From IMG/VR virus record IMGVR_UViG_2548876956_000006: 36,639 nt of DNA, one strand, 5' to 3'. How positions within the stretch are numbered: the first letter of the stretch is position 1; each line of letters starts with the position of its first letter. The notes under the pieces were generated by a model, which saw only the letters and a list, made by a program, of their open reading frames with translations, had not been told where the DNA came from and searched no databases. This stretch comes from a virus (lineage: Duplodnaviria > Heunggongvirae > Uroviricota > Caudoviricetes). Made by a program: the position numbers and the translations under genes. Positions 1-12,150 of the stretch are shown here, one piece after another.

Positions 1-60
1 GCAATCTCCCCTTACTTATCCGGAGGCAATTGCAATATCTCTGTGAACTTACACAGCGCT

Positions 61-201
61 ATGTCGCAAAAATCGCTTACGGCCATCACGTTCTGCGTGA
101 CGGTAATCCTCATCATCTGGATGCTGCACGGTTCGCTGTGTGAAATACGGATGAGCTTCTGGGGAGCGGAGTTTGCGGCGTTCTTACAGTGTAAGCAGTA
201 A
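61..201 (+). CDS. hok: Hok/Gef-family type I toxin (small membrane peptide, 46 aa)
   Basis: Short ORF absent from the ORF track (below length cutoff). Translation MSQKSLTAITFCVTVILIIWMLHGSLCEIRMSFWGAEFAAFLQCKQ has an N-terminal hydrophobic helix followed by the SLCE[IL] and AAFL motifs typical of Hok family members (closest by eye to HokA). Start codon choice is uncertain. Confidence 0.7.
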   Translation: MSQKSLTAITFCVTVILIIWMLHGSLCEIRMSFWGAEFAAFLQCKQ

Positions 202-287
202 GGAAACCGCGACGGGGGAGTAATCCCCCGTCAATCGGTTGCCAAGGCTGGCCGAAGTGGCACCCTATCCCATCGACAGAAACAATA

Positions 288-321
288 AAACCCGCAGCGT
301 AAAAACTGCGGGTTTTATTTT
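288..321 (+). terminator. Rho-independent terminator downstream of hok
   Basis: GC-rich hairpin cccgcag / ctgcggg followed by ttttatttt. Confidence 0.6.
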
Positions 322-392
322 GGAACTCTCACTTAGCTAGGGTACCGTTAACAACACACATAATGCTCGCAAAACAAACCAGTCAAAAGTAA

Positions 393-671
393 TTAATCAG
401 CATTCTCCTGCTTCCATTGCCGGATCATTTCATCAGTAACATCACTCTCATAACATACAACATCATACCCTCCAGTACGGCTATATGCACTGCGTCCACC
501 ACACCTACTACCATTCCTTGCATGATTATAAGGACACGCACAATTGCCTGGATATGATTCAATGGATTCTTTAATTATTTCTTTCTTGATCTGAACATCA
601 GACTTTCCTGTTGCTGCATACCCACTAAAAGATACCAAACAAAAGCAGATTGCCATTAATAAACCACATCG
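393..671 (-). CDS. Small Cys-containing secreted protein, host flank, unknown function
   Basis: AT-rich ORF. The internal Met at about 671 gives a signal-peptide-like N-terminus (MRCGLLMAICFCLVSFSGYAA); the longer upstream extension in the ORF track is probably not translated. Confidence 0.4.
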   Translation of the reverse strand, partial: RCGLLMAICFCLVSFSGYAATGKSDVQIKKEIIKESIESYPGNCACPYNHARNGSRCGGRSAYSRTGGYDVVCYESDVTDEMIRQWKQENAD

Positions 672-1140
672 CATACCGATACACTCTATTACTAACCAAT
701 CATAACCCACATCATAAAATCGAGATGTGGAGTACAACACCTTTAACAAGAAGGTGTCATAACGATAATATGTCGAGCAATTCATCAAAAAAAAGATCTA
801 TATCAAAGAGATAGAGCTCTTATCAGTACTGCAGACATCGGCATTCGAAGCAGCAGAAAAAACAGTAAATCTGACGAATTTGCCTTTTCTCAGGATGTTG
901 TCAGATTAAAAAAGATAGATTAGCGCAGGTACCTTTGGTGGATGGCTGGAGGAAAAATGAAGTCGAGTGGAAAAATCCCAGAAAAATTTTGTTTAACCGA
1001 AGTCTTGGTTCACTATGCGAAATACGGAGGAGCTGCAGGAGAATTCTGCTTCATCCTTAGAGCTTAAACAGCACGTGCACTATCATTGTTGTTTCTGCAT
1101 ATCGCCACACCACCGCCACTCTACCGCCATTGCTCAAAAT

Positions 1141-1171
1141 ACAAATACAAAAAAACCACCCGAAGGTGGTT
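1141..1171 (-). terminator. Rho-independent terminator (native terminator downstream of the tRNA-Leu locus)
   Basis: On the minus strand, hairpin aaccacc-uucg-ggugguu is followed by a U-tract; it lies just 3' of the tRNA fragment. Confidence 0.55.
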
Positions 1172-1215
1172 TCACGACACTGCTTATTGCTTTGATTTTA
1201 TTCTTATCTTTCCCA

Positions 1216-1270
1216 TGGTACCCGGAGCGGGACTTGAACCCGCACAGCGCGAACGCCGAGGGATTTTAAA
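1216..1270 (-). other. Partial tRNA-Leu(UAA) gene, 3' ~53-55 nt only (anticodon loop to CCA): prophage attachment-site core at the int-proximal junction
   Basis: Minus strand reads ...TTTAAAATCCCTCGGCGTTCGCGCTGTGCGGGTTCAAGTCCCGCTCCGGGTACCA, matching the 3' part of enterobacterial tRNA-Leu (leuZ-type) as I recall it. The sequence 5' of this does not form an acceptor stem or D-arm, so it is a fragment and not a gene. Confidence 0.6.
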
Positions 1271-1376
1271 AACTATCAACCACCATTTATAAATCATAAC
1301 CTTATGATTTTATTAACTTTGCAAATGGCTCTATACGACGCCATTTGAATCTATTGTCACTTTTTATCGCCACTTT

Positions 1377-2378
1377 TTACCCTCTATTGTCAAAAGGGTT
1401 TAATTCAACAGCAGCCTCTAAATGACCCGGAGCAAAATGCGCATAACGCATAGTCATTTTTATATCGCTATGCCCCAGTATTTTTTGCAACACAAGAATA
1501 TTTCCGCCCCGCATCATAAAATGACTAGCAAACGTGTGACGTAGCACATGAGTTAATTGCCCATCAAGGAGCTCTATCTTCGCTCTCTTAATTGCAGCGT
1601 CAAAAGCCTCATAACATGGTGAAAATAGCGCTCCTCGTTTTTTAGGAAGCATAGCCTGCAATTGAGGTGAAATCGGTACAGTGCGGTTCTTCTTTCCTTT
1701 AGTTTTAACAAATGTGATTCGACCGGGCAGTACTTGAGATTGCTTTAATCCTTCTGCTTCACTCCACCGAGCACCAGTCGCAAGCCCAATACGGACAACA
1801 ACCCCCAAATCTTTATTCCGTGACTCATCACACGCAATCAAAAGGCGTTCAATCTCATCTACATACAGAAACGCCAGCTCCTTTTCTTCCTCACGAAACT
1901 TGCGAATTCCAGTCAGGGGGTTTTCACCAGACCACTCCCCAAGGCGCTTCAGTTCGGCAAAAACAGCATGTAGATATGACTGCTCGCGATTAACGGTTGC
2001 TTCACTAAGTTTTTTCTTCCCCTTGGGATTCCATTCTCCTGATAGCCTTCTTTCCCGATAAGTAGCAAACATATTTTTGTCAAACTGAGAAGCAAATGGA
2101 TCTCCCAGCCTAGAACAAATCGCCTCAAGTTTGACTTTGCGCTCTGCACCAGAGGACAAGGTTTTGCCGTACATCTCAAACCAACGAGCAATCAACTCAG
2201 AAAGACGAGGACCAGAACCATCTTGAAACTCGTCTCCAACTCTACTATTCATTAAACGGCGCTCATAAGAGAGCGCCTCACTTTTTGTCGCAAACTGTTT
2301 ACGAATGCGTTTTCCCGATGCTCCGTAGGGATAACATTCGCAAAGCCATTTACCTGATGGAATCTTACGAACCGACAT
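1377..2378 (-). CDS. int: Tyrosine integrase (P2 Int family)
   Basis: 333 aa with the C-terminal catalytic region HVLRHTFASHF...GHSDIKMTMRYAH (R/H-x-x-R...Y signature). Adjacent to the att fragment. Confidence 0.9.
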   Translation of the reverse strand: MSVRKIPSGKWLCECYPYGASGKRIRKQFATKSEALSYERRLMNSRVGDEFQDGSGPRLSELIARWFEMYGKTLSSGAERKVKLEAICSRLGDPFASQFDKNMFATYRERRLSGEWNPKGKKKLSEATVNREQSYLHAVFAELKRLGEWSGENPLTGIRKFREEEKELAFLYVDEIERLLIACDESRNKDLGVVVRIGLATGARWSEAEGLKQSQVLPGRITFVKTKGKKNRTVPISPQLQAMLPKKRGALFSPCYEAFDAAIKRAKIELLDGQLTHVLRHTFASHFMMRGGNILVLQKILGHSDIKMTMRYAHFAPGHLEAAVELNPFDNRG

Positions 2379-2383
2379 TTTTG

Positions 2384-2731
2384 TTACTTATCACATAAAT
2401 CAAATGCAGCCTTAGTGACGTCCCCCAGATTCTTTTTTAACCCTGGGGCGGCATCATTATCTAGCCAAAATGGATTATTGTTATCTAACGGTAACGCACC
2501 AAATGTTTTACCTTTTATTCGAGCCAAACCTGTAAGCGCATATAACTTATTATCGTCAAAATTCATCACATAAGGATTACCATCAAGACACTGCAATTGA
2601 ACCTCATCTGTATTAAATGGCCATACTCCATTGAAACTCTCACGTTCAATAGTTTTAAAAGGCATTGCGACGGCGGAAAAAGAAAACATAGATAAAAAAG
2701 CAACTAATAGTTGAACCTTTTTTACTTTCAT
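2384..2731 (-). CDS. Small secreted/periplasmic protein (signal peptide, two Cys), unknown function; cargo gene
   Basis: N-terminus MKVKKVQLLVAFLSMFSFSAVA is a signal peptide; gene is AT-rich; sits 6 nt upstream of int on the same strand; SD gagg is 9 nt before the ATG. Confidence 0.6.
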   Translation of the reverse strand: MKVKKVQLLVAFLSMFSFSAVAMPFKTIERESFNGVWPFNTDEVQLQCLDGNPYVMNFDDNKLYALTGLARIKGKTFGALPLDNNNPFWLDNDAAPGLKKNLGDVTKAAFDLCDK

Positions 2732-2760
2732 GTCATTGCCTCAATTTAGCTCAAGTAAGA

Positions 2761-3411
2761 TTACAAATTAAAAAACATCCTAGAAATGACTCCGCCTACC
2801 AAAACCCCTACGCAGATAAAGAATATTATTTCTTTTGGATAAAATCGGATTAATTCTGAAGCACGAAGGCGGACTTCTGGTAAGGTCGAATTCTCTGTGT
2901 GGCTTGATACCGATTGTTGCTCCAACCACGACAATGCAGACTGTAACTGAGAACGAGTAAGATCGTTTAAACGTCCTGTACCGAAATTGATATGGCAATA
3001 CCGCAGAAGTTTTTGTCGAAGTCCACAGTCTTCACTGTTACGTAGTAATAAACTTACAAGAGTCTTACAGGCATCATGATCTTTACATCGCTCAAGCATT
3101 GTATGCAGAAAACTCTCCGCTGTTTTATATTGATTTATTGTCATATCATCAATACCAGCTACACCAATCTCCGCATGTACTTTTTGCCAAATAATAAACG
3201 CTTCAGTATTGCTAGCTTCTGCAATAGCAGCAACCAAGCTATTTAGCTCCTTACGCTGTGCCTTAAGCAAAGGGCGAGCGTCATCATCATTATTCGAAGG
3301 GATTGCGATATTGACGGTATGAGAACCATCATATCGCTCTATCTGAATATTCTTTTCGTGAAAATCACGCCCAGCAACGCGATTGTTTGAACCGTTTGAG
3401 TTGACGGCCAT
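2761..3411 (-). CDS. Tail-anchored membrane protein (C-terminal TM helix), unknown function; cargo gene in the repressor-int operon
   Basis: 216 aa; strong SD GGAGGTGAC before the ATG; C-terminal hydrophobic segment IIFFICVGVLVGGVISRMFF; no family recognised. Confidence 0.6.
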   Translation of the reverse strand: MAVNSNGSNNRVAGRDFHEKNIQIERYDGSHTVNIAIPSNNDDDARPLLKAQRKELNSLVAAIAEASNTEAFIIWQKVHAEIGVAGIDDMTINQYKTAESFLHTMLERCKDHDACKTLVSLLLRNSEDCGLRQKLLRYCHINFGTGRLNDLTRSQLQSALSWLEQQSVSSHTENSTLPEVRLRASELIRFYPKEIIFFICVGVLVGGVISRMFFNL

Positions 3412-3426
3412 GTCACCTCCCTACTA

Positions 3427-3831
3427 TCACCTACCCTTAGTTTCGTTATAGTCACGACCAGCGATACGGTTATTACCACCAGAAATATTTAACTCACGCC
3501 CTGATGGCTGAGTTTCCTTTTCACTGCCCGCACCTTTTAAAGCCCCGATCACCGCGTTTTTTACATCTAACGAAGCTGCTCGAAAGCGAGTAATCAACTC
3601 CTGCTCATCATCGTTATAAGTTTCAGGTGAGTGAATTCCCAACACAACATACTGAACATCAAGGCCAAAACGAGACAGCGCTGCCAAATACGCAGCATCA
3701 GGAAAGCTATCTCCTTTCTCATATCTAAGCTGAGTTAGCTTTTTGACTCCACCAATGTCGCTCATAGCAACTTGACTAAGCCCCAATCTTTCCCTTTCCT
3801 CACGCAACCGCTGACCAATATCATTTTTCAT
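3427..3831 (-). CDS. HTH (XRE/Cro-CI type) transcriptional repressor, probable prophage immunity repressor
   Basis: N-terminal HTH (IGQRLREERERLGLSQVAMSDIGGVKKLTQLRYEKG); divergent from the early operon; first gene of the minus-strand operon ending in int. Confidence 0.7.
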   Translation of the reverse strand: MKNDIGQRLREERERLGLSQVAMSDIGGVKKLTQLRYEKGDSFPDAAYLAALSRFGLDVQYVVLGIHSPETYNDDEQELITRFRAASLDVKNAVIGALKGAGSEKETQPSGRELNISGGNNRIAGRDYNETKGR

Positions 3832-3840
3832 ACAAAAACC

Positions 3841-3869
3841 TTGACAGGTATCTTTTTTGATACCAAAAT
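3841..3869 (+). promoter_or_regulatory. Early promoter with operator palindrome (GGTATC-N6-GATACC) between repressor and early operon
   Basis: TTGACA, then a 17-nt spacer containing the perfect dyad ggtatcttttttgatacc, then caaaat; located about 40 nt upstream of the 3907 start. Confidence 0.35.
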
Positions 3870-3906
3870 GATTTCACGAGCTATTAGATGATCACAATAT
3901 ACCACT

Positions 3907-4113
3907 ATGAAACAAGTTCTTCACGATACCAGATCACGCATTCCGCGTAACACCGCCACAGGTCCAAGACTGGCACTTCGGCTGTCCCTCGAGGAGCGAG
4001 CCGTCATTGATGAAATGGCAGCTAAAGAACAACGCTCATCCTCTAACATGGCGCGCATGATCTTCCTTCGCGGCCTAGAGCTAACCCAGAAAGAACAAAA
4101 CAAATCTTCCTGA
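3907..4113 (+). CDS. Small ribbon-helix-helix-like regulator (Cro/Apl-position early regulator)
   Basis: 68 aa; LALRLSLEERAVIDEMAAKEQRSSSNMARMIFLRG resembles an RHH beta-strand plus two helices; first gene of the early rightward operon. Confidence 0.45.
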   Translation: MKQVLHDTRSRIPRNTATGPRLALRLSLEERAVIDEMAAKEQRSSSNMARMIFLRGLELTQKEQNKSS

Positions 4114-4129
4114 TCAGGAGGCTAGTGGG

Positions 4130-4333
4130 ATGTCAGGTATAACCATCAATATCAATGTGAATGCCCCCTATGTATCCCTGCAGAAATATGCAGAGATAAC
4201 AGGTATCCCTCTTAATACATGCAAAAAGATGTTGGCTGACGGTCGAATTATTATCCGCCCCAAACGTGCCAAAATGGAAAAGCCTGAAGTAAACCTTGTG
4301 GCGATGTTAAAAGACGCTTTGGCTAACAGCTAA
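4130..4333 (+). CDS. Excisionase/Cox-like small HTH DNA-binding protein
   Basis: 67 aa; VSLQKYAEITGIPLNTCKKMLADGRI is HTH-like, as in Xis/AlpA/Cox-type proteins. Confidence 0.45.
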   Translation: MSGITININVNAPYVSLQKYAEITGIPLNTCKKMLADGRIIIRPKRAKMEKPEVNLVAMLKDALANS

Positions 4334-4354
4334 AACAATGAACAGAGCATCATC

Positions 4355-4705
4355 ATGAAAAAAAACGCTAATAATCCATACTCCAAATTTCGTAATGGCG
4401 TAGAACGCCATGTACACCACGTCGCTACCAGTGCATCACGTAGTAACAATCGCTATAACCTGAACGAAACGCACGCAACACCAGATGGGCACGCTGTAAA
4501 ACAAATCGGCGAACACACCTGGCTGATTGAGAAAGCTGGAATAGTGGTTCACAGATGCTCACGCAATCCGTTTACCGGAAACCGCATTTTTGCATTAAGC
4601 AACGGCGATAATCAGTTCGGGCAGGATTTTACATTGTACGAAGCACTGCGCACAGTCGATCGTTTGCTTCGCGGGCAAAGTTTTATTAAACAGGCTGATT
4701 TATAA
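4355..4705 (+). CDS. Early-region hypothetical protein
   Basis: ORF with protein-like composition in the early operon; no family recognised. Confidence 0.45.
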   Translation: MKKNANNPYSKFRNGVERHVHHVATSASRSNNRYNLNETHATPDGHAVKQIGEHTWLIEKAGIVVHRCSRNPFTGNRIFALSNGDNQFGQDFTLYEALRTVDRLLRGQSFIKQADL

Positions 4706-4715
4706 CAGGTGCTTT

Positions 4716-4994
4716 ATGACTAAAGACCATGCACAAGGTGTATTTATCCGCTTTATTGATTTTCGCGGTGAACTGTTATTACGAGCATCAGCTATTGACG
4801 GAGTAGTTCCATCTGAAAAAAATGCAGCTACCTACGTTTATCTGAACGGTACGCGCCTGACAGTAGAACTTCCGTACCAGACCGTTCGCGAAATAATTAA
4901 CGAAGCTGAAAAAGCTAGTCAGGTTAATGGCGATGAACCCTATATCGAAATTATCTGCATGGATTCAGAAGCTGAAATTCAGAAAGCAGATTAA
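4716..4994 (+). CDS. Early-region hypothetical protein
   Basis: ORF tightly spaced in the early operon; no family recognised. Confidence 0.45.
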   Translation: MTKDHAQGVFIRFIDFRGELLLRASAIDGVVPSEKNAATYVYLNGTRLTVELPYQTVREIINEAEKASQVNGDEPYIEIICMDSEAEIQKAD

Positions 4995-5005
4995 AGGGCG
5001 TTGCG

Positions 5006-5248
5006 ATGGGCAAAGAATATAAAACTCTCATAAACAAAGCACTTGAGCGTTTTTATTTTCGCTTAAGTGCATCAGGTACTCATGCTGAACGTGCAGCCCG
5101 TGACTCATTGACCAGGGCAATCCGGAGTCTGTATGACGTGGCTTTTTACGCTGATGATCTGGATGCACTTAACGAACTTTCCGAGCTGATCTGTGCCGCA
5201 GAATGCGGGGAGCATATTGAACCGTATAAGCTGGGGAATATTGCATGA
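5006..5248 (+). CDS. Early-region hypothetical protein
   Basis: ORF in the early operon; no family recognised. Confidence 0.45.
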   Translation: MGKEYKTLINKALERFYFRLSASGTHAERAARDSLTRAIRSLYDVAFYADDLDALNELSELICAAECGEHIEPYKLGNIA

Positions 5249-5358
5249 GTATATTTATCTCATGGCTTGTTCTGATTATTTCGGTGGTCTGCGCCATTGG
5301 GATTATGCGAATTATTCGTTCAGTAAAAAAGATTGACCGCTTTTTCACTGGCGAATAA
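5245..5358 (+). CDS. Small single-pass membrane peptide (37 aa)
   Basis: ATG overlaps the stop of the upstream gene (ATGA); translation MSIFISWLVLIISVVCAIGIMRIIRSVKKIDRFFTGE is a hydrophobic helix plus a basic tail. Not in the ORF track (short). Confidence 0.3.
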   Translation: MSIFISWLVLIISVVCAIGIMRIIRSVKKIDRFFTGE

Positions 5359-5445
5359 CAGCGCAAATAAAAACCCTAGGTTAAATAAGAAAATGTAAAA
5401 ACAATCCGCATTCGCGGAGGTATTCGCACACGCCCAGGAGGTGTA

Positions 5446-5649
5446 ATGGCAATTAAGCATTTTCCTGTCGTTCGTTTCACTTCCAGAGGACGTGAATACG
5501 AAGTCGACGAACGCCTGATTACCACAATCGACAAACACCGCTCAGAAAAGGATGCACACCACATCTATCTCACTGACGGTACTTACTTCTGCGCCACTAA
5601 TGTGGCGCGGGTGAATCTTATCAGACAGGTACAGGATCCACGCAAATGA
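5446..5649 (+). CDS. Early-region hypothetical protein
   Basis: ORF; overlaps the next gene by 4 nt (translational coupling). Confidence 0.45.
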   Translation: MAIKHFPVVRFTSRGREYEVDERLITTIDKHRSEKDAHHIYLTDGTYFCATNVARVNLIRQVQDPRK

Positions 5650-5864
5650 GCAGGAGAAGAATCACTCGCAAACATCACCGCACACACCTGAATTCCTCAG
5701 CAACGCTAAGGGCACTTATTAAAAGCGAGATCGGTGATTTCTTCGCGGGAGTTGGCTCACCAGGTGAACCAGAAACACCAGAAGCGATACAGCGTGAGCT
5801 CATGATACGCATAGATAGCACTTTTGATTTCTTCTACAGCATGCACGGAATTAAACAGAAATGA
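5646..5864 (+). CDS. Early-region hypothetical protein
   Basis: ORF in the early operon; no family recognised. Confidence 0.4.
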   Translation: MSRRRITRKHHRTHLNSSATLRALIKSEIGDFFAGVGSPGEPETPEAIQRELMIRIDSTFDFFYSMHGIKQK

Positions 5865-5972
5865 ACCTCAAGCCAGCAATAACTACTCGTAGAACGCCAA
5901 TTCCTGTAACCGACCGCTTCTGAGTTTTTTGGCAGGAAGCCTTCGCACATCCTTAGTAGAGAGAATTGCAGC

Positions 5973-6362
5973 ATGATTGACGCTCATGACTTCACAAGAT
6001 GGGTGCGCACACAGGACACCCGTCTGGCTCCCGTTCTTCAGGGATTATTTGATCTCTACATCCGTGGTCGTGACAACAGAGCACGCACTACAAAACCGGA
6101 GAATGCGGACACCCTTTATTTCACAGTAGACGACTGCTACCGCGTGGACTTAACACCACACGGGCTGGCGTTGCGCTGCCTGACACCGCATGGCGAATCA
6201 CTGCTGGCGTATTACGACTCCCCGGCCTCCGTATTTGCGGCAATGCTGGCGCATCACACTGCTGGCGGGTGTGCCTCGCTGAGTGAATACACCGCTGAAT
6301 TTAACCGCCTTTCCACCATCTTCTCGCAGGAGTGGCAGCGCGTGACGGGATACCAGCCATGA
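5973..6362 (+). CDS. Early-region protein immediately upstream of A (position of P2 B/orf83-like genes)
   Basis: 129-aa ORF whose stop overlaps the A start (ATGA). Confidence 0.5.
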   Translation: MIDAHDFTRWVRTQDTRLAPVLQGLFDLYIRGRDNRARTTKPENADTLYFTVDDCYRVDLTPHGLALRCLTPHGESLLAYYDSPASVFAAMLAHHTAGGCASLSEYTAEFNRLSTIFSQEWQRVTGYQP

Positions 6363-9199
6363 GTGAGTTTACATGGAGCTGGAATGAACCACGGCCAGCC
6401 ATTGAGCCGGACAGATTTACGGAGCGCAGGCAGGAAACTGAAACCGACCTGCAACGCGCCATCCGTTACTACCTTGAGGCGGACAAAAAGGCCCGGAAAG
6501 AACAGGAAGCGAAGGAGGAAGCCTTTTTCGCACAATCCACCGTGGGTAAAAAACTCATGGCATCCCTTGAGGAAGCCGGACAGCGTGAAAAGCTGGCACA
6601 AAGCATCATCAGCAAGCGTCAGGCAACAGAACAAGACCCGGTGGCCCGTGCTTTTGCCACACTGAAGGTGCTTCCCGTTTATCTGCGTGAACCTCTGAGC
6701 CGCCACCTCTCTTTCCTGCACAAAAAACAGGAATCCGATCGTCAGAAAGGCAAAAAGAGCTGGCAGGCTGAACGCTACGCGCGCGGAACCCTGCGCAAAA
6801 TATTCGAACGTCTGGACCGCACCGACAGCCGTTGGCTGACACCGGGTTATCGGTCCCTTGCCGGACGTGAACGCCTGGACGATTTGCTTTACCTGCCGCA
6901 GCTCAACAAACACCAGATACAGACGCTGGCCACCATGACGGCGGCGATGTTCAGCAGCACCTTCGAAAAACTCTGCGATGGTTTTGGCGCGACTGATGGC
7001 GAGCTGACCATGGATGTAACGCTGAAGGCGTATCAGATGCTGGCCCGCATGGCGTTACACTTGCACGCCATGCCTCCGCATTATGACGCACTGACAACAG
7101 ACAAAGACCGGAGGAACGAACCGGACACAGAACTGCTGCCGGGCGCAATCCTTCGCCTGACCTGTGCAGAATGGTGGAAACGCAAACTGTGGCTGTTACG
7201 TTGCGAGTGGAGAGAAGAACAACTCCGCGCCGCCTGTCTGGTTTCCAGAAAAACATCGCCCTATCTGAGTCAGGACGCGTTAAGCGAGTTTCGCGCACAG
7301 CGCGAGAAAACACGCGATTTCCTGAAAAGTTTCATGCTGGAAAATGAAGACGGGTTCACGATTGATCTCGAGACGGTGTATTACGCGGGAGTAAGTAACC
7401 CGGTTCACCGTAAGGCAGAAATGATGGCCACCATGAAGGGGCTGGAACTTCTGGCCGAAGCCCGTGGCGACAGAGCGGTGTTTCTGACTGTCACCTGCCC
7501 GTCAAAATACCACGCTACAACAGAGAACGGTCATCCGAACCCCAAATGGAACGGGGCCACCATGCGCGACTCCAGCGATTACCTGGTTAACACGTTTTTT
7601 GCGGCGGTCCGCAAAAAACTGAACCGCGACGGTCTGCGCTGGTATGGCATCCGCACGGTGGAGCCTCACCATGACGGCACTGTGCACTGGCATATGATGG
7701 TCTTTGCACATCCGGACGAGATTGAAACCATCGTGTCCCACGTCTGCGATATTGCCATTCAGGAAGACCGCCACGAGCTGGGCGATGACATAACTCCGCG
7801 TTTTAAGGCGGAGTACGTAGACGGCTCAAAAGGCACACCAACCAGCTACATCGCCACCTACATCGGAAAGAACCTGGACAGCCGCGCCGTGGATGGCATC
7901 GACCCGAAAACGGGCAAGCCACGCGTTGACCACGAAACCGGAAAATCAATGGCCGAGAGCGTGGAACGCGCCATCGGCTGGGCGCGCCTTCACCGGGTCC
8001 GCCAGTTCCAGTTCTTTGGTATCCCCTCCCGTCAGGTGTGGCGTGAACTGCGCCGCCTTGCCAGCCAGATGGCACGCAACCCGGAAGGCCCGCAACGGCT
8101 GAAGGATGACGCAATGGATGCGGTACTCGCTGCCGCTGATGCCGGGTGTTTTGCCACCTACATTGAAAAACAGGGTGGTGTGCTTGTTCCACGCAAAGAC
8201 TACCTGATTCGCACCGCCTACGACCTCGCAGATGATCTGAACGATTACGGTGAGCAGAGTGTACAGATTTACGGGATCTGGTCGCCGCTCATCGGGGAGT
8301 CTTCCCGCGTATGCACGCATCCGGATAACTGGAAGCTGGTAAGACGCAAACCAGAACAGGAAGGTAGCGCCCACGAAAATGGTTTTGACCTTCAGGGCGG
8401 CCCTGCCGCCCCTTGGACTCGTGGCAATAACTGTCCCCGTGAACAGGAAACAGACAACAACGGGACAGAACAGCCGGAAGAACGGCCAGCACCGTGGCCG
8501 CAGCTCCCTGACAGCGTTGAAGTGAACGAATGGATGCATTCACTGAAACGGCACGAACGCCGGGCGCTGATGCGTTCGCTTCGTGACAAACAGGCAAAAA
8601 ACAGCAGCGATGAAATGCAGAACTGGACACAGAGCCGCAAACAGCCACAGCCTTTGCCTGATAACCACGAGTTACTCGCTAAAGAATGGCGGGAGTCTGC
8701 TGAATCTCTCGGCCTGCATATTGGTGAACAGCAGATGCAGCACCTGTTACGGGGCGGCAGTCTGTACGTTGACGGCAGCATCATTGCACCGCAGGGATTT
8801 GAAATTGTACGCAAACCGGATACCCGCCCGGACAGCCGAATCACGCAGCTCTGGCAACGCCTGAGCCGTAATCACGGCGTAAGCAGCACGGAGATCCGCC
8901 ATAACCCGGTCGCCAGCTATCTGGAACAGCTGGGGGCATCAGACCCTGAAGCCGCCGCACGCCTGGCATCCACACTTCAGCAGGACCAGAACACCATGAA
9001 AACCCCCGTTACCGTGCTTTCTGACATGCTGCGCGCCATCCGTGACGCAGAGCACGCCCAGAGAATCAGTGAAACCACTGAACGCGCCCGCCGCAAAGCA
9101 GACCTGCTGCGGGGTAGCCTGACCAGTGGAAACAAAAAACAGACAGAAACGGGACTCACAAATCCCGTAAATGAGCAAAAAACGTGCCGCGATATATGA
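6359..9199 (+). CDS. A: Replication initiation protein, P2 gpA-like rolling-circle endonuclease
   Basis: Large ORF in the position of P2 A; contains an HxH-type motif (VHWHMMVFAHPDE) typical of Rep-family nickases. Start taken at the ATG overlapping the upstream stop; the ORF track starts at 6332. Confidence 0.8.
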   Translation: MSEFTWSWNEPRPAIEPDRFTERRQETETDLQRAIRYYLEADKKARKEQEAKEEAFFAQSTVGKKLMASLEEAGQREKLAQSIISKRQATEQDPVARAFATLKVLPVYLREPLSRHLSFLHKKQESDRQKGKKSWQAERYARGTLRKIFERLDRTDSRWLTPGYRSLAGRERLDDLLYLPQLNKHQIQTLATMTAAMFSSTFEKLCDGFGATDGELTMDVTLKAYQMLARMALHLHAMPPHYDALTTDKDRRNEPDTELLPGAILRLTCAEWWKRKLWLLRCEWREEQLRAACLVSRKTSPYLSQDALSEFRAQREKTRDFLKSFMLENEDGFTIDLETVYYAGVSNPVHRKAEMMATMKGLELLAEARGDRAVFLTVTCPSKYHATTENGHPNPKWNGATMRDSSDYLVNTFFAAVRKKLNRDGLRWYGIRTVEPHHDGTVHWHMMVFAHPDEIETIVSHVCDIAIQEDRHELGDDITPRFKAEYVDGSKGTPTSYIATYIGKNLDSRAVDGIDPKTGKPRVDHETGKSMAESVERAIGWARLHRVRQFQFFGIPSRQVWRELRRLASQMARNPEGPQRLKDDAMDAVLAAADAGCFATYIEKQGGVLVPRKDYLIRTAYDLADDLNDYGEQSVQIYGIWSPLIGESSRVCTHPDNWKLVRRKPEQEGSAHENGFDLQGGPAAPWTRGNNCPREQETDNNGTEQPEERPAPWPQLPDSVEVNEWMHSLKRHERRALMRSLRDKQAKNSSDEMQNWTQSRKQPQPLPDNHELLAKEWRESAESLGLHIGEQQMQHLLRGGSLYVDGSIIAPQGFEIVRKPDTRPDSRITQLWQRLSRNHGVSSTEIRHNPVASYLEQLGASDPEAAARLASTLQQDQNTMKTPVTVLSDMLRAIRDAEHAQRISETTERARRKADLLRGSLTSGNKKQTETGLTNPVNEQKTCRDI

Positions 9200-9244
9200 A
9201 GCGCGCACAAAACAGGCAAAAGAGGGATTTCAGAATCCCGTAAA
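9151..9244. repeat. Two 21-bp repeats with internal dyad (GGGAyTyNNrAATCCCGTAAA) 73 bp apart; candidate parC-like centromere/operator or A-associated origin element
   Basis: gggactcacaaatcccgtaaa (9151-9171) and gggatttcagaatcccgtaaa (9224-9244), 16/21 identical, each containing GGGA...TCCC. They flank the A stop and lie just upstream of parM. Confidence 0.3.
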
Positions 9245-9275
9245 CGGTTAATTAATCAACATAAGGAAAATCGAC

Positions 9276-10235
9276 ATGAAAATTTGTATCGACGACGGCT
9301 CCACCAACATCAAGCTGGCATGGACTGAGAACGGCGAACGCCGCAACGCCATCAGCCCGAACAGCTTCAAGTCGGAATGGTCTGCGCCGTTCGGTGGCAC
9401 GCAGCCCGCGAACTACATGCTTGATGGCGTGCGCTATGGTTTTGATCCGGTCAGTGATCGCTTTGTCCAGACGACCGACACGCAATACCAGTACAGCGAT
9501 GTGAATGTCATTGCCATTCATCACGCGCTGGTCAAATCAGGCATCACGCCACAGGAGGTGGATATGGTTGTCACCCTGCCACTGAGCGAGTATTTCGACA
9601 CAAACGCACAGCCGGACATGGCCAACATCAACCGCAAAAAAGCAAACGTTATGCGCCCGGTGGAATACCAGAACGGCGAAGCATTCACTATCCGTAATGT
9701 ACGGGTTATGCCTGAATCCATTCCGGCTGGCTTTAAAGCACTGGCTGACATGAGTCCGTTTGAATCCCTGCTGATTGTGGATTTAGGTGGAACCACGCTG
9801 GATGTGGCAAAGGTTCAGGGACAACTGGCAGGTATCAGCCAGGTGTTTTGCGATCCACACGTAGGCGTTTCCCTGATGGCCGATGCAGTACTGTCGGTGA
9901 TGGCCACTAACGGTATGCGTACCAGTCACCACATCGCCAATACCATTATCGAACATCGCCATGATGAAGCCTGGCTGCGCCAGCACATCCACAATGACGC
10001 GCATTACGCCAGCCTGATGGCGGTTATTCGTGAAAAGGAAGAAACACTGAAACAACGCGTGATCCGCGCGCTGGCGGGTTTTTCGGGTTACGGGCGGGTG
10101 ATGGTTGTCGGTGGCGGGGCGGAGATTGTGGCACCCGCTATCCGCGAAGCCTGCGGAGTTAATGCGACTTTCATCGCGGACGGGGTGCCACAGTTTGCTC
10201 TGGTTAATGGGCTGTACGCAATGGACAAGGAGTAA
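9276..10235 (+). CDS. parM: ParM/StbA-family actin-like plasmid-segregation ATPase
   Basis: 319 aa; N-terminus MKICIDDGSTNIKLAW plus PNSFK, QYSDVNV, VMPESIPAG, DLGGTTLDV, FSGY, VVGGGAE and LVNGLY closely parallel plasmid R1 ParM as I recall it. Confidence 0.85.
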   Translation: MKICIDDGSTNIKLAWTENGERRNAISPNSFKSEWSAPFGGTQPANYMLDGVRYGFDPVSDRFVQTTDTQYQYSDVNVIAIHHALVKSGITPQEVDMVVTLPLSEYFDTNAQPDMANINRKKANVMRPVEYQNGEAFTIRNVRVMPESIPAGFKALADMSPFESLLIVDLGGTTLDVAKVQGQLAGISQVFCDPHVGVSLMADAVLSVMATNGMRTSHHIANTIIEHRHDEAWLRQHIHNDAHYASLMAVIREKEETLKQRVIRALAGFSGYGRVMVVGGGAEIVAPAIREACGVNATFIADGVPQFALVNGLYAMDKE

Positions 10236-10239
10236 ACCA

Positions 10240-10551
10240 ATGACGACACCAACCAGACGAATAAGTTTCTATCTGAAGCCCGCCGCCGTCAAGAACGAAG
10301 GCGAAGCATGCGCCTGGCTGGACAGCCTTACACCAGAAGCCCGTAAAAACGGCCAACGCGTGGCTTTTCTGGCTGGGCTGGCGCTTCTGAAAATGAATCC
10401 GGCAGAGGCTTACCGACTGGCAGCATGGGCTGACGATGAGGCGTTATCAGTGACACAAACCAGGACAGAACGCCCCCTGTCACAGCCAGTACCAACCGCA
10501 CAGATAACCAGTCAGATGGCCGGAAATATCAGGGCGTTATTTCCTGAATAA
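10240..10551 (+). CDS. parR: ParR-like small DNA-binding partner of ParM
   Basis: 103 aa directly after parM; RRISFYLKP...AWLDSLTPEARKNGQRVAFLAGLALLK...IRALFPE parallels R1 ParR (RRTIAFKLNP...DSIPQGERSR...AALTAGLAL...LRSLFPKE). The ORF track extends the frame upstream into parM; the ATG at 10240 is the plausible start. Confidence 0.6.
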   Translation: MTTPTRRISFYLKPAAVKNEGEACAWLDSLTPEARKNGQRVAFLAGLALLKMNPAEAYRLAAWADDEALSVTQTRTERPLSQPVPTAQITSQMAGNIRALFPE

Positions 10552-10614
10552 CACAACGTCAGGGCGAGTTCGCCCTGATCTCCATCTCAGAACATAAACA
10601 AGAAGAGCGACTTA

Positions 10615-10998
10615 ATGAGCAAAATCAACTATCAGGCATTACGTGAACGTTATTCACCTGCACCAGTACCAAAATGCCCTATTTGCGGCGAAGAAATGTC
10701 AATTCAGCGAATATCTGGAGCACTGGTTGTTTATGGCTGCTCCGGTTATGGTGATGAAGGAGATTTCAAAATTGGTCGAACTCTTGCCGACGAACATTAT
10801 GAAAAATCACGCGTAACAGTGTTGGATGTCGGGGATCCTGAAGTATTGGCGCTACTTGATTGGCTGGAAACCAAAGACAACCGAATCGCTGAACTGGAAA
10901 AAATCGCCACTGACTATGCACTTAAATTCCAGAAAGCACAGGACGCATTAAAGTACGCCGCTTTGCTGCATAGCAGGACAGTGCAGCTACAAGACTAA
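10615..10998 (+). CDS. Hypothetical protein with CxxC and C-terminal coiled-coil-like region
   Basis: 127 aa; CPICGEE...YGCSGYG; no family recognised. Confidence 0.45.
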   Translation: MSKINYQALRERYSPAPVPKCPICGEEMSIQRISGALVVYGCSGYGDEGDFKIGRTLADEHYEKSRVTVLDVGDPEVLALLDWLETKDNRIAELEKIATDYALKFQKAQDALKYAALLHSRTVQLQD

Positions 10999-11088
10999 CT
11001 TAAAGCGGAAGATTAATACATGGTGAGTCGGGGTAATTTGTTTTTATCCCGACAAATAAACAAAAAAGTGGACTATCTCTGTAGTATC

Positions 11089-11619
11089 TTATTCAGCATC
11101 GTCTCGTGCAGTCTGTGCATACGTCACAACAACGCCCAATGCATTAGTTTTCTTTTCAACATAGATAATATTGTCATATTCATAGTTACCATACGGATAG
11201 CAAATAAGAATATTTTTATGCAGATCGGGATCATCAACAAACGCTCCGGAACAGCTTCTTGAACTACCGGATGTATACTCATACGGTGCAACATATGATG
11301 ATGTTACTCCTGGTAAAAAATAAGTCACCATCATAAGAGGGATAATCAGGAATATCCCTGTAAGAATGCAAGAGCCAGCATAAACCTTCAGGTATTCCGA
11401 CAGTCCTTTCCAGCCACTTTGCTTCACTACCCCCCTCTTCACCAGAAACAAGGAGAAGAAAAAGGACATACCCATACTACACAAGATGTAATAATTGGAT
11501 ATACGCGAATTAAGATATGTAATCCTGTAGATATCTGCCCTCCACCAGTAAAAGAGGAAAATAATCCCTAGCACTGAAACAGTCATGCAAATCAAATAAG
11601 GATATGAATCTTTCTTCAT
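11089..11619 (-). CDS. Multi-pass membrane protein, AT-rich cargo in the A-cos (P2 tin/old-position) hotspot
   Basis: 176 aa, low-GC, opposite strand to the flanking operon; about three hydrophobic helices (VSVLGIIFLFYWW, FFFSLFLV, CILTGIFLIIPLMMVTYFL) followed by a soluble C-terminal segment. Confidence 0.55.
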   Translation of the reverse strand: MKKDSYPYLICMTVSVLGIIFLFYWWRADIYRITYLNSRISNYYILCSMGMSFFFSLFLVKRGVVKQSGWKGLSEYLKVYAGSCILTGIFLIIPLMMVTYFLPGVTSSYVAPYEYTSGSSRSCSGAFVDDPDLHKNILICYPYGNYEYDNIIYVEKKTNALGVVVTYAQTARDDAE

Positions 11620-12150
11620 GTCTTGCGCTCATTAAAATTTCACTGCTACGAACAAATTTACCATCCGTTTTTTGCGCAGAAAACAGCACGATGCACACTG
11701 CACGATAGTGCACAAATTTGCACAATTTTTTTGAACGACTTTTTACCCTTCCGGCCCGCATGGCGGCTGGATCCGTCAAGGATCCGTGCGTGCACAAAAA
11801 AACGCGTTTTTTCTGCGCGCAGGTGACGGGGGAACAGCCCGCGTTTCAGGGGGTAAATAGCATTCCCTGAACGATGTCGCAGAGACACAACAGAATGGCT
11901 GTATTTCTCACGCTGAGCGTGAAAAATACGTGAGGGATTCTGATTTGATGGGGTGAAAGGTAAGGCCGTCAAAATCGCACTGAGGCGGCGAAGAACATGC
12001 AGTCAACGCGGTGGGATTGCGTAAGAGTCTGACCGCCGATGATGGCAATAAGCAGAAAAGCGTCGTGAAATTATCTGATTGATACAGGAGCTGGAGAGCC
12101 GGGGCATAAATTTTTTATGCCCCGCCGAAGCAGCAGACAAGCGAAGCGCG

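What the first reader, a model, noticed from the sequence alone, without database searches (positions are those of the whole stretch)
3340..3480. Shared peptide motif NNR[VI]AGRD[YF] at the repressor C-terminus and the N-terminus of the downstream membrane protein
The repressor ends ...NISGGNNRIAGRDYNETKGR and the next protein begins MAVNSNGSNNRVAGRDFHEKN. The two motif copies use different codons (aat aac cgt atc gct ggt cgt gac tat versus aac aat cgc gtt gct ggg cgt gat ttt), so conservation is at the protein level and not a recent DNA duplication. The two ORFs are in the same frame, separated by three stop codons (TGA TAG TAG) and a strong SD. A common motif on a DNA-binding repressor and a membrane protein could be a shared degron, a partner-binding peptide, or a remnant of domain shuffling.
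Basis: seen in the sequence. Interest (0 to 1): 0.5.

Follow-up and report, generated by a model that had tools for sequence, protein, structure and literature searches.

The report
Repressor tail matches membrane partner's head
In this P2-like E. coli prophage, and in many other temperate phages of Proteobacteria, the last ~18 residues of the lysogeny repressor and the first ~18 residues of the membrane protein encoded just downstream carry the same glycine/asparagine-rich peptide, and the two copies change together from phage to phage, which points to an undescribed physical link between the repressor and the membrane protein.

Summary
The 134-aa XRE-type repressor (3427..3831, -) ends LNISGGNNRIAGRDYNE-TKGR. 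The 216-aa tail-anchored protein 15 nt downstream (2761..3411, -) begins MA-VNSNGSNNRVAGRDFHE. The motif is kept in all 120 listed partner homologues and in the enterobacterial repressor homologues.

In more distant phages (Gilliamella, Pectobacterium, Aeromonas, Pseudomonas, Burkholderia, Rhodocyclaceae, and the Mu-like phages B3, Ps59, BcepMu, KS10) the motif differs, but the repressor tail still matches the head of its own downstream gene. Cognate pairs score 42 versus 25 for non-cognate pairs (0 of 10,000 permutations).

Synonymous sites are fully randomised (113 same codons observed, 113.0 expected), so selection acts on the peptide. Both copies lie in predicted disordered termini. They are rich in N, G, Q and V and poor in L, P and K, like bacterial amyloid-signalling motifs. 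The partner bodies vary, and most are membrane proteins.

Best reading: a co-evolving homotypic pairing peptide, probably strand-on-strand, that couples the immunity repressor to a membrane-anchored partner. What this coupling achieves (tethering or sequestering the repressor, or controlling an effector) is inferred, not shown. I found no description of it in the literature searched.

The parts
3427..3831 (-). Lysogeny (immunity) repressor gene, 134 aa, XRE-type helix-turn-helix; first gene of the leftward operon repressor - partner - DUF2511 - integrase
   Evidence: ORF list. Pfam HTH_31/HTH_19/HTH_3 match below their cut-offs; PHROG 8 'transcriptional regulator' E = 3.6e-14. It lies divergent from Arc-like and Cox-like genes. 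Homologues in KS10, BcepMu and Ps59 are annotated as phage repressors.
3640..3819 (-). Repressor DNA-binding domain (residues 5-64)
   Evidence: AlphaFold2 model, five helices, pLDDT 92-94; the Pfam HTH matches fall here.
3529..3612 (-). Two conserved helices (residues 74-101, DDEQELITRFRAASLDVKNAVIGALKG); probable dimerisation region (inference)
   Evidence: AlphaFold2 helices 74-85 and 88-101, pLDDT 81-90; conserved columns E76, L79, R84, A86, K91, L98.
3442..3492 (-). Repressor copy of the shared motif: LNISGGNNRIAGRDYNE (residues 114-130), in a disordered C-terminal tail
   Evidence: BLASTP alignment to the partner's residues 3-19; tail pLDDT about 50 with no secondary structure; conserved in enterobacterial homologues.
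3430..3441 (-). Basic C-terminal end TKGR (residues 131-134)
   Evidence: 60 of 61 non-redundant repressor tails have at least 2 K/R in their last 8 residues.
3412..3429 (-). Junction: TGA stop, two further in-frame stops (TAG TAG) and the Shine-Dalgarno site GGAGG, 4 nt before the partner's ATG
   Evidence: Read directly from the sequence.
2761..3411 (-). Partner gene, 216 aa, tail-anchored inner-membrane protein (PHROG 5825; precomputed Pfam PF27202)
   Evidence: PHROG 5825 E = 1.9e-101; 186 homologues, all of those listed carrying PF27202 except one; intact in 27 of 27 complete E. coli viral-contig loci.
3355..3405 (-). Partner copy of the shared motif: VNSNGSNNRVAGRDFHE (residues 3-19), at the extreme N-terminus
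   Evidence: N-terminal 44 residues have pLDDT 53-62 and no secondary structure.
3295..3354 (-). Possible degenerate second repeat, KNIQIERYDGSHTVNIAIPS (residues 20-39). It aligns with the single motif of other lineages, and relatives read ...IDQFVGRDLVNISIP
   Evidence: Alignment A2. My motif HMM did not detect it at i-Evalue 0.1, so this is tentative; two clear repeats were found only in BcepMu-type partners.
2887..3279 (-). Cytoplasmic all-helical domain (residues 45-175), related to the N-terminal domain of the flagellar regulator Flk
2767..2838 (-). C-terminal transmembrane helix (residues 192-215); K/R on its N-terminal side place the bulk of the protein, including the motif, in the cytoplasm (inference from the positive-inside rule)
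   Evidence: Hydropathy maximum 2.36 at residue 195; AlphaFold helix 192-215.
2384..2731 (-). Context: DUF2511 protein with a signal peptide, third gene of the operon (no motif)
   Evidence: Pfam DUF2511 E = 1.3e-5, above its cut-off; PHROG 2950.
1377..2378 (-). Context: tyrosine integrase, last gene of the operon
   Evidence: Pfam Int_N and Phage_integrase.

Best explanation
The two peptides are a matched, co-evolving pairing motif. One unit of about 18 residues (pattern h-x-h-x-G-x-h-x-[Q/R]-h-A-G-x-D-h-x-[N/E]) sits at the very C-terminus of the lysogeny repressor. A near-copy sits at the very N-terminus of the protein encoded immediately downstream in the same lysogen-expressed operon. Here that protein is a cytoplasm-facing, tail-anchored membrane protein with an Flk-like helical domain.

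Shown: the motif is conserved in both families. Both copies lie in predicted disordered terminal extensions. The motif sequence differs between phage lineages but matches within each gene pair. The similarity is held at the protein level only.

Inferred: the two disordered peptides bind each other directly by like-with-like strand pairing. This would be a beta-arch or cross-beta type contact, as in the amyloid-signalling motif pairs of adjacent genes (BASS, HET-s/NWD2). The result is that the repressor is physically coupled to the membrane-anchored partner, with a specificity private to each phage.

Most likely consequence (weaker inference, about 0.35): the partner tethers, sequesters or co-assembles with the repressor at the inner membrane and so modulates the lysogeny switch. 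This repressor has no RecA-cleavable peptidase domain, so the partner could supply an envelope-linked input. Second most likely (about 0.25): the repressor tail controls the partner as a lysogen-expressed membrane effector, in the manner of a toxin-antitoxin pair, abortive infection or superinfection exclusion.
For: 1. The motif is real and conserved.

2. Co-variation. In 36 loci from genomes, the Smith-Waterman score of the repressor tail against the head of its own downstream ORF averages 42.4. Against heads from other loci it averages 24.8. None of 10,000 permutations reached the observed sum, and the cognate partner ranks first in 11 or more loci. Examples: L014 QQINGPISGGVAGRDFVQ / QEINGDVEGGIAGRDIVR; L018 TVDYGNAQIGQASAGDIVNK / TVSFGGAQIDQAAAGDINNY; L013 QIFNGDISGQFAGNQIIN / QEFNGTAQGQFSSRDIIN; L036 EQVFHGQVGQAIK / RQDFHGDVGQVLQ. 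Viral contigs add more (L148, L152, L141, L159, L123). Deposited Mu-like phages show the same: B3 ORF18/ORF20, Ps59 gp17/gp18, BcepMu gp17/gp18, KS10 gp13/gp12.

3. No DNA-level homogenisation. At 248 identical aligned residues, 113 use the same codon, against 113.0 expected from local codon usage.

4. Position. The motif lies at the extreme termini: a median of 1 residue follows it in the repressor and 0 precede it in the partner, over 61 non-redundant pairs. The genes are collinear, with gaps of -23 to +35 nt in most loci and often a 4-nt overlap.

5. Both copies are in low-confidence, structure-free extensions of otherwise confident AlphaFold models.

6. Composition: N 2.25x, G 2.0x, Q 2.0x, V 1.6x; L 0.14x, P 0.46x, K 0.70x. 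This is the bias reported for BASS motifs. Those motifs also occur at the C-terminus of one protein and the N-terminus of the product of the adjacent collinear gene (bioRxiv 10.1101/2020.01.06.895854).

7. The partner bodies are heterogeneous: Flk-like domain plus TM; Flk-like domain plus coiled coil, TM and a periplasmic Cys domain; zinc ribbon plus TM; small 1-3 TM proteins; a 57-aa protein that is only motif plus TM; and a few soluble forms. The motif is what stays constant.

8. Phages of one host genus, and the co-resident prophages KS10 and BcepMu of B. cenocepacia J2315 (PMC2628397), carry different motif classes. The specificity is therefore intrinsic to the phage.

9. In Janthinobacterium-type loci there is no motif-bearing partner. 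Instead, a conserved A9 run at the repressor's KKK would, after a 1-nt slip, fuse the repressor to a TM segment plus the periplasmic Cys domain. This would be a covalent version of the same coupling.
Against: AlphaFold monomers give the motifs no structure at all. Co-variation would also arise if both peptides bound one common, co-evolving phage-encoded ligand. In-register stacking of R over R and D over D in the AGRD core is not obviously favourable. Neither partner is an NLR/STAND receptor or a Bell-type executioner, so the amyloid analogy rests on gene architecture and composition only. I could not score the motifs with ArchCandy or with the BASS profiles. A few tail-bearing repressors have no recognisable partner (L053, L026, L030/L031). 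A few partners lack a membrane segment (KS10 gp12, L054, L058). The loci share ancestry, so the permutation result overstates the number of independent events, although at least eight distinct motif classes are each matched on both sides. The functional consequence is not determined by any result here.
Confidence: 0.62

Rival explanations
1. Common-ligand (decoy) model. The two peptides do not bind each other. Both are recognised by the same phage-specific third molecule, for example an antirepressor or Cox/Arc-type protein of the same phage. The membrane protein would then act as a decoy or sink that competes with the repressor tail.
For: It would equally produce lineage-specific co-variation of tail and head and protein-level conservation. 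The partner's helical domain resembles small phage protein-interaction modules such as the Red-beta and Sak C-terminal domains.
Against: No third protein carrying or co-varying with the motif was seen: the motif occurs only twice in the six-frame translation of the window. The composition (N/G/Q/V-rich, L/P/K-poor) and the placement at a C-terminus and an N-terminus of adjacent genes are those of self-pairing motifs. The module moves between P2-like and Mu-like phage backbones as a two-gene unit.
Confidence: 0.15
2. Shared degron. Both proteins carry the same recognition tag for a host protease or chaperone, so that repressor and membrane protein are turned over together.
For: Both copies are exposed, disordered and terminal, as many degrons are.
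Against: Host proteases are conserved, yet phages of one host genus carry very different motif classes, each matched within its own pair. Pectobacterium P0157 differs from P0170; Pseudomonas B3 differs from L024 and L020; Burkholderia KS10 differs from BcepMu. One copy is C-terminal and the other N-terminal, which terminus-specific recognition would not treat alike.
Confidence: 0.05
3. Non-functional similarity: chance, or a passive remnant of a duplication of the repressor's 3' end onto the next gene (or ongoing gene conversion).
For: The genes are adjacent, so a tandem duplication could seed an N-terminal copy on whatever gene lies downstream. That would fit the heterogeneous partner bodies.
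Against: E = 3e-5 for the single pair. The motif is kept in all 120 listed partner homologues. Cognate pairs exceed non-cognate pairs in 0 of 10,000 permutations. Codon choice at identical residues is exactly random, 113 against 113.0, so there is no recent duplication or conversion. Similarity that persists after synonymous saturation requires selection on the peptide. Even if duplication is the origin, retention is functional.
Confidence: 0.03

Closest known systems
Amyloid-signalling motif gene pairs: fungal HET-s/NWD2, bacterial BASS1-10 (Bell-domain protein + NLR), BASS11 Bab/Agp abortive-infection system of E. coli prophages
   Same: A short motif shared between the C-terminus of one protein and the N-terminus of the product of the adjacent collinear gene, with tiny gaps or overlaps. 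The same N/G/Q/V enrichment and L/P/K depletion, in otherwise unstructured termini. Several effector bodies share one motif logic, and some partners carry pseudo-repeats (BcepMu gp18 has two). Location in prophages.
   Different: The upstream protein is a helix-turn-helix lysogeny repressor, not a cell-death effector. The downstream protein is a tail-anchored or other membrane protein, not an NLR/STAND receptor. The unit is about 18 aa rather than about 25. The hosts are unicellular Proteobacteria. Fibril formation, prion behaviour and matches to the BASS profiles are untested.
SinR/SinI (and SlrR/SlrA) of Bacillus subtilis (from my own knowledge; a paper on SinR regulation turned up but I did not read it)
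   Same: An XRE-type repressor whose C-terminal association region is mimicked by a protein encoded by the adjacent gene. Like-with-like pairing lets the second protein control the repressor.
   Different: The Sin region is a helical hook, and SinI is a small soluble antagonist under separate control. Here the motif is Gly/Asn-rich and non-helical, the partner is usually membrane-anchored, and it is co-transcribed downstream of the repressor.
Type II toxin-antitoxin operons with HTH-XRE antitoxins (HipB, MqsA, HigA types)
   Same: N-terminal HTH, a disordered C-terminal tail, a downstream gene overlapping by 4 nt, and weak profile matches of the repressor to MqsA- and HipB-type antitoxins.
   Different: Antitoxin tails do not resemble their toxins in sequence. 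The partner matches no toxin or defence model (PADLOC none). The upstream gene sits in the position of the phage immunity repressor.
Flk (RflH), tail-anchored flagellar regulator of Salmonella and E. coli
   Same: The partner's helical domain matches Flk residues 21-151 (E = 3.3e-15), and both end in a single C-terminal TM helix.
   Different: Score 56 against a cut-off of 353, so it is not an Flk orthologue. Flk proteins (about 330-350 aa, beginning MQP.SG...) lack the N-terminal motif and are not next to a repressor.
Antirepressors that aggregate or sequester phage repressors: RstC/RstR of CTXphi and RS1, Qtip/cI of VP882 (from my own knowledge)
   Same: A small phage protein removes a repressor from DNA by co-assembly or aggregation. 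The repressor here gives a weak NCBIfam match to the RstR family.
   Different: Those antirepressors are separately induced, soluble, and share no sequence motif with their repressor.

Membership tests
BASS-type amyloid-signalling gene pair | The same short motif at the C-terminus of one protein and the N-terminus of the protein encoded by the adjacent collinear gene | tested here: met
   the motif is at the extreme termini in 61 non-redundant pairs. Gaps are -23 to +35 nt in most loci, often a 4-nt overlap.
BASS-type amyloid-signalling gene pair | Composition enriched in Q, N, G, V, I and depleted in K, P, L; length about 25 aa; beta propensity | tested here: inconclusive
   The composition matches (N 2.25x, G 2.0x, Q 2.0x, V 1.6x, I 1.02x, L 0.14x, P 0.46x, K 0.70x). 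The unit is about 18 aa. Beta or beta-arch propensity was not scored (ArchCandy is unavailable), and AlphaFold monomers show no strand.
BASS-type amyloid-signalling gene pair | One partner is an NLR/STAND receptor (NB-ARC or NACHT plus repeats); the other is a Bell-type or other cell-death effector | tested here: not met
   The upstream protein is an XRE HTH repressor. The downstream protein is an Flk-like tail-anchored protein. No NB-ARC, NACHT or Bell match.
BASS-type amyloid-signalling gene pair | The peptides form amyloid fibrils or prion-like foci, and one side templates the other | not testable with these tools
   Needs ThT or Congo red binding, electron microscopy, GFP-foci assays or solid-state NMR.
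BASS-type amyloid-signalling gene pair | Match to one of the published BASS1-11 profiles | not tested
Phage immunity repressor (CI/C type, XRE fold) | HTH_XRE DNA-binding domain, and a position at the lysis-lysogeny switch divergent from cox/cro-type genes | tested here: met
   HTH matches and PHROG 8. The gene is divergent from Arc-like and Cox-like genes. Homologues are annotated as repressors in KS10, BcepMu and Ps59.
Phage immunity repressor (CI/C type, XRE fold) | Confers immunity and binds operators | not testable with these tools
   There is only an operator-like inverted repeat at 3820-3872. A B3-family RepC was validated genetically in phage Fc02 (PMC9936078), but I did not show that it is homologous to this protein.
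LexA/lambda-CI type SOS-cleavable repressor | C-terminal S24 peptidase domain | tested here: not met
   134 aa, with no Peptidase_S24 match; the C-terminal part is two helices plus a disordered tail.
Flk (NCBIfam PRK10715) | Whole-protein score above the curated cut-off (353 bits) | tested here: not met
   56.2 bits; only residues 38-168 match.
Flk (NCBIfam PRK10715) | Cytoplasmic domain anchored by a single C-terminal TM helix | tested here: met
Type II toxin-antitoxin pair | The downstream gene encodes a recognised toxin fold | tested here: not met
SinR/SinI-type antagonist mimicry | The shared region is the helical 'Sin' multimerisation hook | tested here: not met
   The shared region is Gly/Asn-rich and predicted non-helical.

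The most novel reading that the evidence does not exclude
The repressor tail and the partner head form a cross-beta (amyloid-like, possibly self-templating) assembly. A phage immunity repressor would then be one arm of an amyloid-signalling pair. Clustering of repressor tails on DNA, or clustering of the membrane partner, would flip the other protein's state in an all-or-none, phage-specific manner. That would give either a new, SOS-independent route to prophage induction or immunity control, or a repressor-guarded membrane effector. It would be the first amyloid-signalling pair built on a transcription factor. It is widespread in P2-like and Mu-like phages of Proteobacteria, including B3, BcepMu and KS10.
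Probability: 0.25. Interest if true: 0.9.

Novelty: new variant of a known kind. Interest (0 to 1): 0.72.

Why it matters
Lysogeny repressors of P2-like and Mu-like phages are usually treated as self-contained DNA-binding proteins, and the gene after them as an anonymous accessory gene. It is not even annotated in the RefSeq record of the closest phage.

A peptide that co-evolves between the repressor's end and the next protein's start implies a physical, phage-specific coupling between the immunity switch and the cell membrane. About 10% of complete E. coli genomes carry this very module (525 of 5,426).

If the coupling is confirmed, three things follow. It would explain how repressors that lack a RecA-cleavable domain receive inputs or guard an effector. 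It would extend the 'matched terminal motif in adjacent genes' logic from NLR-type immune receptors to transcription factors. It would also give a simple genomic rule (tail equals next head) for finding further such pairs.

The idea is directly testable in tractable phages: B3 in P. aeruginosa PAO1, KS10 and BcepMu in B. cenocepacia, and this prophage in E. coli.

Tried and rejected
- **Read-through model:** an AlphaFold job on window:2761-3831:- was meant to place tail and head in one chain.
- **Defence and family libraries:** PADLOC gave nothing for the partner or the DUF2511 protein. The local Pfam copy has no family for the partner, only sub-threshold noise (ELYS, zf-P11). The precomputed PF27202 is newer than that copy, so I did not see its name.
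- **Natural fusions:** I looked for fusions of repressor and partner among the longer repressor homologues (P0182, P0207, P0229, L035). These are tandem HTH duplications or N-terminal extensions, not fusions.
- **Second pseudo-repeat:** a motif HMM detected a second repeat only in BcepMu-type partners, not in the E. coli protein. The 'two repeats' idea for the window is therefore only tentative.
- **Gene conversion or recent duplication:** rejected by the codon test.
- **Read-through or frameshift fusion in the window:** rejected, because three consecutive in-frame stops and no slippery run precede the partner.
- **Literature:** searches on prophage repressor plus shared motif, P2-like plus tail-anchored, prion-like plus prophage induction, Flk plus prophage, and BcepMu gp17/gp18 found no description of the pair. 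The BASS papers searched do not mention HTH, XRE or repressor.
- **Deposited phages:** tblastn of the partner against 50,697 deposited phage genomes found only the prophage-derived record 520873 and one weak Ralstonia hit.
- **tRNA:** no tRNA gene in the window.
Full report
**1. What is there**

The window is a P2-like (Peduoviridae, Xuanwuvirus-type) E. coli prophage. It is 97.5% identical over the tested 2.1 kb to Escherichia phage 520873, and the same 2.1 kb occurs in 525 of 5,426 complete E. coli genomes.

On the minus strand there is one leftward gene string:
- a 134-aa XRE-type helix-turn-helix protein (3427..3831);
- a 216-aa protein (2761..3411);
- a 115-aa DUF2511 protein with a signal peptide (2384..2731);
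- a tyrosine integrase (1377..2378).

Arc-like and Cox-like genes run divergently from 3907. This is the layout of the P2-type lysis-lysogeny switch, so the 134-aa protein sits in the position of the immunity repressor.

The repressor ends ...ELNISGGNNRIAGRDYNETKGR. The DNA then reads TGA TAG TAG GGAGGTGAC ATG, and the next protein starts MAVNSNGSNNRVAGRDFHEKN. Every factual statement in the finding is correct. BLASTP aligns residues 114-130 with residues 3-19 (10/17 identical, 15/17 similar, E = 3e-5). Nucleotide identity is 59%, and only 4 of 10 identical residues share a codon. The downstream protein has a C-terminal membrane helix.

**2. The motif is conserved in both families**

All 120 listed homologues of the 216-aa protein begin with N-S-x-G-x-x-N-R-x-[A/S]-G-R-D-[F/Y]-x-E. 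They come from E. coli, Klebsiella, Enterobacter, Serratia, Erwinia, Raoultella, Citrobacter and others, down to 59% identity.

Among the listed repressor homologues, 49 of 120 end with [I/V]-N-V-[S/T]-G-x-G-[N/Q/H]-R-[V/I/A]-A-G-R-D-[Y/F]-[N/H]-E-x-K-K. These are from Yersinia, Klebsiella, Serratia, Salmonella, Erwinia, Dickeya, Pectobacterium, Hafnia and Buttiauxella.

**3. The decisive result: the two copies change together**

More distant repressor homologues have different Gly/Asn/Gln-rich tails. I fetched 80 genomic loci and 80 viral-contig loci around repressor homologues and extracted the ORF that follows the repressor. In lineage after lineage, the tail of the repressor matches the head of its own downstream ORF, although the motif differs from the E. 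coli one:

| Source (locus) | Repressor tail | Downstream head |
|---|---|---|
| Rhodocyclaceae (L014) | QQINGPISGGVAGRDFVQ | QEINGDVEGGIAGRDIVR |
| Jeongeupia (L018) | TVDYGNAQIGQASAGDIVNK | TVSFGGAQIDQAAAGDINNY |
| Pectobacterium (L013) | QIFNGDISGQFAGNQIIN | QEFNGTAQGQFSSRDIIN |
| Proteobacteria MAG (L019) | KQVFKGSVSGVAGRDVVK | KQTFKGPVGDVAGNDVVK |
| Giesbergeria (L036) | EQVFHGQVGQAIK | RQDFHGDVGQVLQ |
| Gilliamella (L005) | QIAGGNIY | QIAGRDIY |
| Pseudomonas (L033) | QQFNGPVGSVTSGDVVN | QQFNGAVEQVAAGDIKN |
| Viral contig (L148) | KQVFHGAVSGGVAARDIINN | MQEFQGNVDGGVAGRDIVNQ |
| Viral contig (L141) | NVGQQIQAG | DVDQLIQSG |

Over 36 loci, the cognate tail-versus-head local alignment score averages 42.4 against 24.8 for non-cognate combinations. 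None of 10,000 permutations of the pairing reached the observed total, and the cognate partner ranks first in at least 11 loci.

If one ancient duplication had been followed by independent drift, a tail would be no closer to its own head than to heads from other lineages. The excess therefore needs co-evolution, or repeated re-copying followed by retention. The loci are related, so the permutation figure is not a count of independent events. However, at least eight clearly different motif classes are each matched on both sides.

**4. Selection is on the peptide, not the DNA**

At the 248 aligned positions where tail and head have the same residue (27 loci), 113 use the same codon. The number expected from the codon usage of the same genes is 113.0. 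Overall nucleotide identity of the aligned motif DNA is 60%. There is no sign of gene conversion or recent duplication.

**5. Anatomy of the motif**

All variants align in a single register of about 18 residues: h-x-h-x-G-x-h-x-[Q/R]-h-A-G-x-D-h-x-[N/E]. The motif lies at the extreme ends. A median of 1 residue follows the motif envelope in the repressor, and 0 precede it in the partner, over 61 non-redundant pairs. The repressor nearly always ends in a short basic stretch, with at least 2 K/R in the last 8 residues in 60 of 61.

The motif regions are enriched in N (2.25x), G (2.0x), Q (2.0x) and V (1.6x). They are depleted in L (0.14x), P (0.46x) and K (0.70x).

AlphaFold2 models built with family alignments give:
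- for the repressor, a confident HTH (residues 5-64) and two helices (74-101), then a structure-free tail (pLDDT about 50);
- for the partner, a structure-free N-terminal 44 residues (pLDDT 53-62), a very confident helical domain (45-175, pLDDT about 98) and a membrane helix (192-215).

Both copies are thus exposed, disordered terminal peptides. Given the basic residues before the membrane helix, the partner's copy faces the cytoplasm (inference).

**6. The partner**

Across loci the body of the downstream protein is not constant. The forms seen are:
- Flk-like domain plus TM (the majority);
- Flk-like domain plus coiled coil, TM and a periplasmic Cys-containing domain (Aeromonas, Jeongeupia, BcepMu);
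- zinc ribbon plus TM;
- small proteins with 1-3 TM segments;
- a 57-aa protein that is only motif plus TM (Thiothrix);
- a few soluble Flk-like forms (KS10 gp12, L054, L058).

What stays constant is the matched N-terminal motif and, in most cases, membrane anchoring. In E. coli the partner ORF is intact in 27 of 27 complete viral-contig loci.

**7. The module is in known phages, but unnoticed**

tblastn shows the same arrangement in Mu-like phages:
- Pseudomonas phage B3: ORF18 (noted as 'similar to P22 c2 repressor') ends GISVTGDGNRTAGRDFHERKE, and ORF20 starts VNIEVTGSNNIVAGRDFIEN.
- Ps59: gp17/gp18.
- BcepMu: gp17 ('cro/cI repressor') and gp18 ('membrane protein').
- KS10: gp13 ('phage repressor', tail MVASGSGITQVGSRV) and gp12 (head MSASGFGIIQVAGDL).

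The KS10 genome paper lists gp12 as having no significant match. It also reports that KS10 and BcepMu co-reside in B. cenocepacia J2315 (PMC2628397). Their motif classes differ, as would be expected if each repressor must pair only with its own partner.

For the B3-like phage Fc02, the repressor RepC was validated genetically, and repc is co-transcribed in the lysogen with the accessory gene downstream of it (PMC9936078). I did not establish that Fc02's pair carries the motif. No paper I could find mentions the shared peptide.

**8. Interpretation**

The genomic pattern has five elements: the same short motif at the C-terminus of one protein and the N-terminus of the next; collinear genes with tiny gaps or overlaps; N/G/Q/V-rich and L/P/K-poor composition; disordered context; and interchangeable bodies. 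This is the pattern that defines amyloid-signalling motif pairs in fungi and bacteria. It includes the Bab/Agp abortive-infection pair of E. coli prophages (bioRxiv 10.1101/2020.01.06.895854; bioRxiv 10.1101/2024.11.07.622273). Like-with-like similarity is what parallel strand stacking selects for. An ordinary heterodimer interface would select for complementarity rather than identity.

I therefore consider direct homotypic pairing of tail and head the best-supported mechanism (about 0.6). This is not a member of the BASS systems as defined: neither protein is an NLR/STAND receptor or a Bell-type executioner. Fibril formation is also untested.

A second useful comparison is SinR/SinI, where a protein from the adjacent gene mimics an XRE repressor's association region. 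That region is helical, however.

**9. What the coupling does**

This part is inference. Several observations favour the partner acting on the repressor (tethering, sequestration or co-assembly at the membrane, an envelope-linked input to a switch that lacks a RecA-cleavable domain):
- some partners are soluble or carry periplasmic domains, which suits a sensor better than a pore;
- Flk is a regulator, not a toxin;
- in three Janthinobacterium-type loci there is no motif-bearing partner, but a conserved A9 run at the repressor's KKK would, after a 1-nt slip, fuse the repressor to a TM segment plus the periplasmic Cys domain. That would give a membrane-anchored repressor.

Other observations favour the repressor controlling a membrane effector:
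- the toxin-antitoxin-like operon architecture;
- the BASS precedent;
- minimal partners that are only motif plus TM.

I put these two at about 0.35 and 0.25.

The main rival to direct pairing is a common phage-encoded ligand that recognises both peptides (0.15). A host-protease degron (0.05) is disfavoured by the diversity of motif classes within one host genus. Chance or a passive remnant (0.03) is contradicted.

**10. Verdict**

The same-frame, triple-stop detail is incidental, because gaps and frames vary freely in relatives.

I class it as a new variant of a known kind: matched terminal motifs in adjacent genes, here with a lysogeny repressor as one arm. The mechanism remains to be tested. 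The decisive experiments are simple and are listed separately.

Noticed in passing
L015:4300-4760; L156:3300-3760; L157:3300-3760 (Janthinobacterium-type loci): The repressor homologue keeps a G/Q-rich tail (…VFHGKVGQQIHGDITAPQTINVGRKKKSPT*), but no motif-bearing partner follows. Its KKK is encoded by an A9 run conserved in all three diverged loci. The +1 frame through that run is open and encodes …KKNHLRKARRKDRLSLIW + TM + the periplasmic Cys domain (CYFDGKAYTVG…C.C) seen in BcepMu- and Aeromonas-type partners. A 1-nt deletion by transcriptional slippage, or a +1 frameshift, would fuse the repressor to a membrane anchor. An in-frame ATG about 20 codons upstream means independent initiation cannot be excluded.
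   Followed up: partly
L161 (NC_049344.1) 2039-3081, equivalent to window 2384..3411: In the RefSeq record of the closest phage (Escherichia phage 520873), neither the 216-aa partner nor the DUF2511 gene is annotated. tblastn finds the partner there in three pieces, and the integrase is split into two CDS. This suggests frameshift errors or decay in that record.
   Followed up: partly
window 2887..3279 (-) and proteins P0280, P0289, P0291, P0294, P0302, P0309 and others: The chromosomal flagellar regulator Flk shares its N-terminal helical domain and its tail-anchor with this family of prophage proteins. The whole family is small (87 clusters at 50% identity in 1.84 billion representatives), which suggests Flk and the prophage partners have a common origin.
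   Followed up: partly
window 3817..3921: The 75-nt switch region between the repressor and the Arc-like gene holds an imperfect inverted repeat (3820-3838 / 3854-3872, 19 nt, 74% complementary), a direct repeat ATACCA..ATGA (3860, 3899), and a TTGACA-N17-CAAAAT promoter-like site facing right (3841-3869). These are candidate operators and the early promoter.
   Followed up: no
window 2384..2731 (-); L162:2592-2978 (B3 ORF22); L163:2552-3160 (KS10 gp11): In the window, in B3 and in KS10, a gene for a secreted or lipoprotein-like protein lies shortly downstream of the partner gene; in B3 a small 36-aa ORF (ORF21) lies between them. The three are DUF2511 with a signal peptide here, an annotated 'lipoprotein' in B3, and gp11 with an LALSAC lipobox-like N-terminus in KS10. 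They do not look homologous to one another. This may be a conserved slot for an envelope protein.
   Followed up: no
L030 and L031 (Lysobacter sp. CA199); KS10 and BcepMu in B. cenocepacia J2315: Genomes that carry two modules of this kind have different motif classes in the two copies, as expected if cross-pairing between co-resident prophages is avoided. This is anecdotal (two cases).
   Followed up: no
window 1..36639: ARAGORN finds no tRNA gene anywhere in the window, so this prophage's integration site is not a tRNA gene inside the window. In the 520873 record the integrase lies next to yecA.
   Followed up: no
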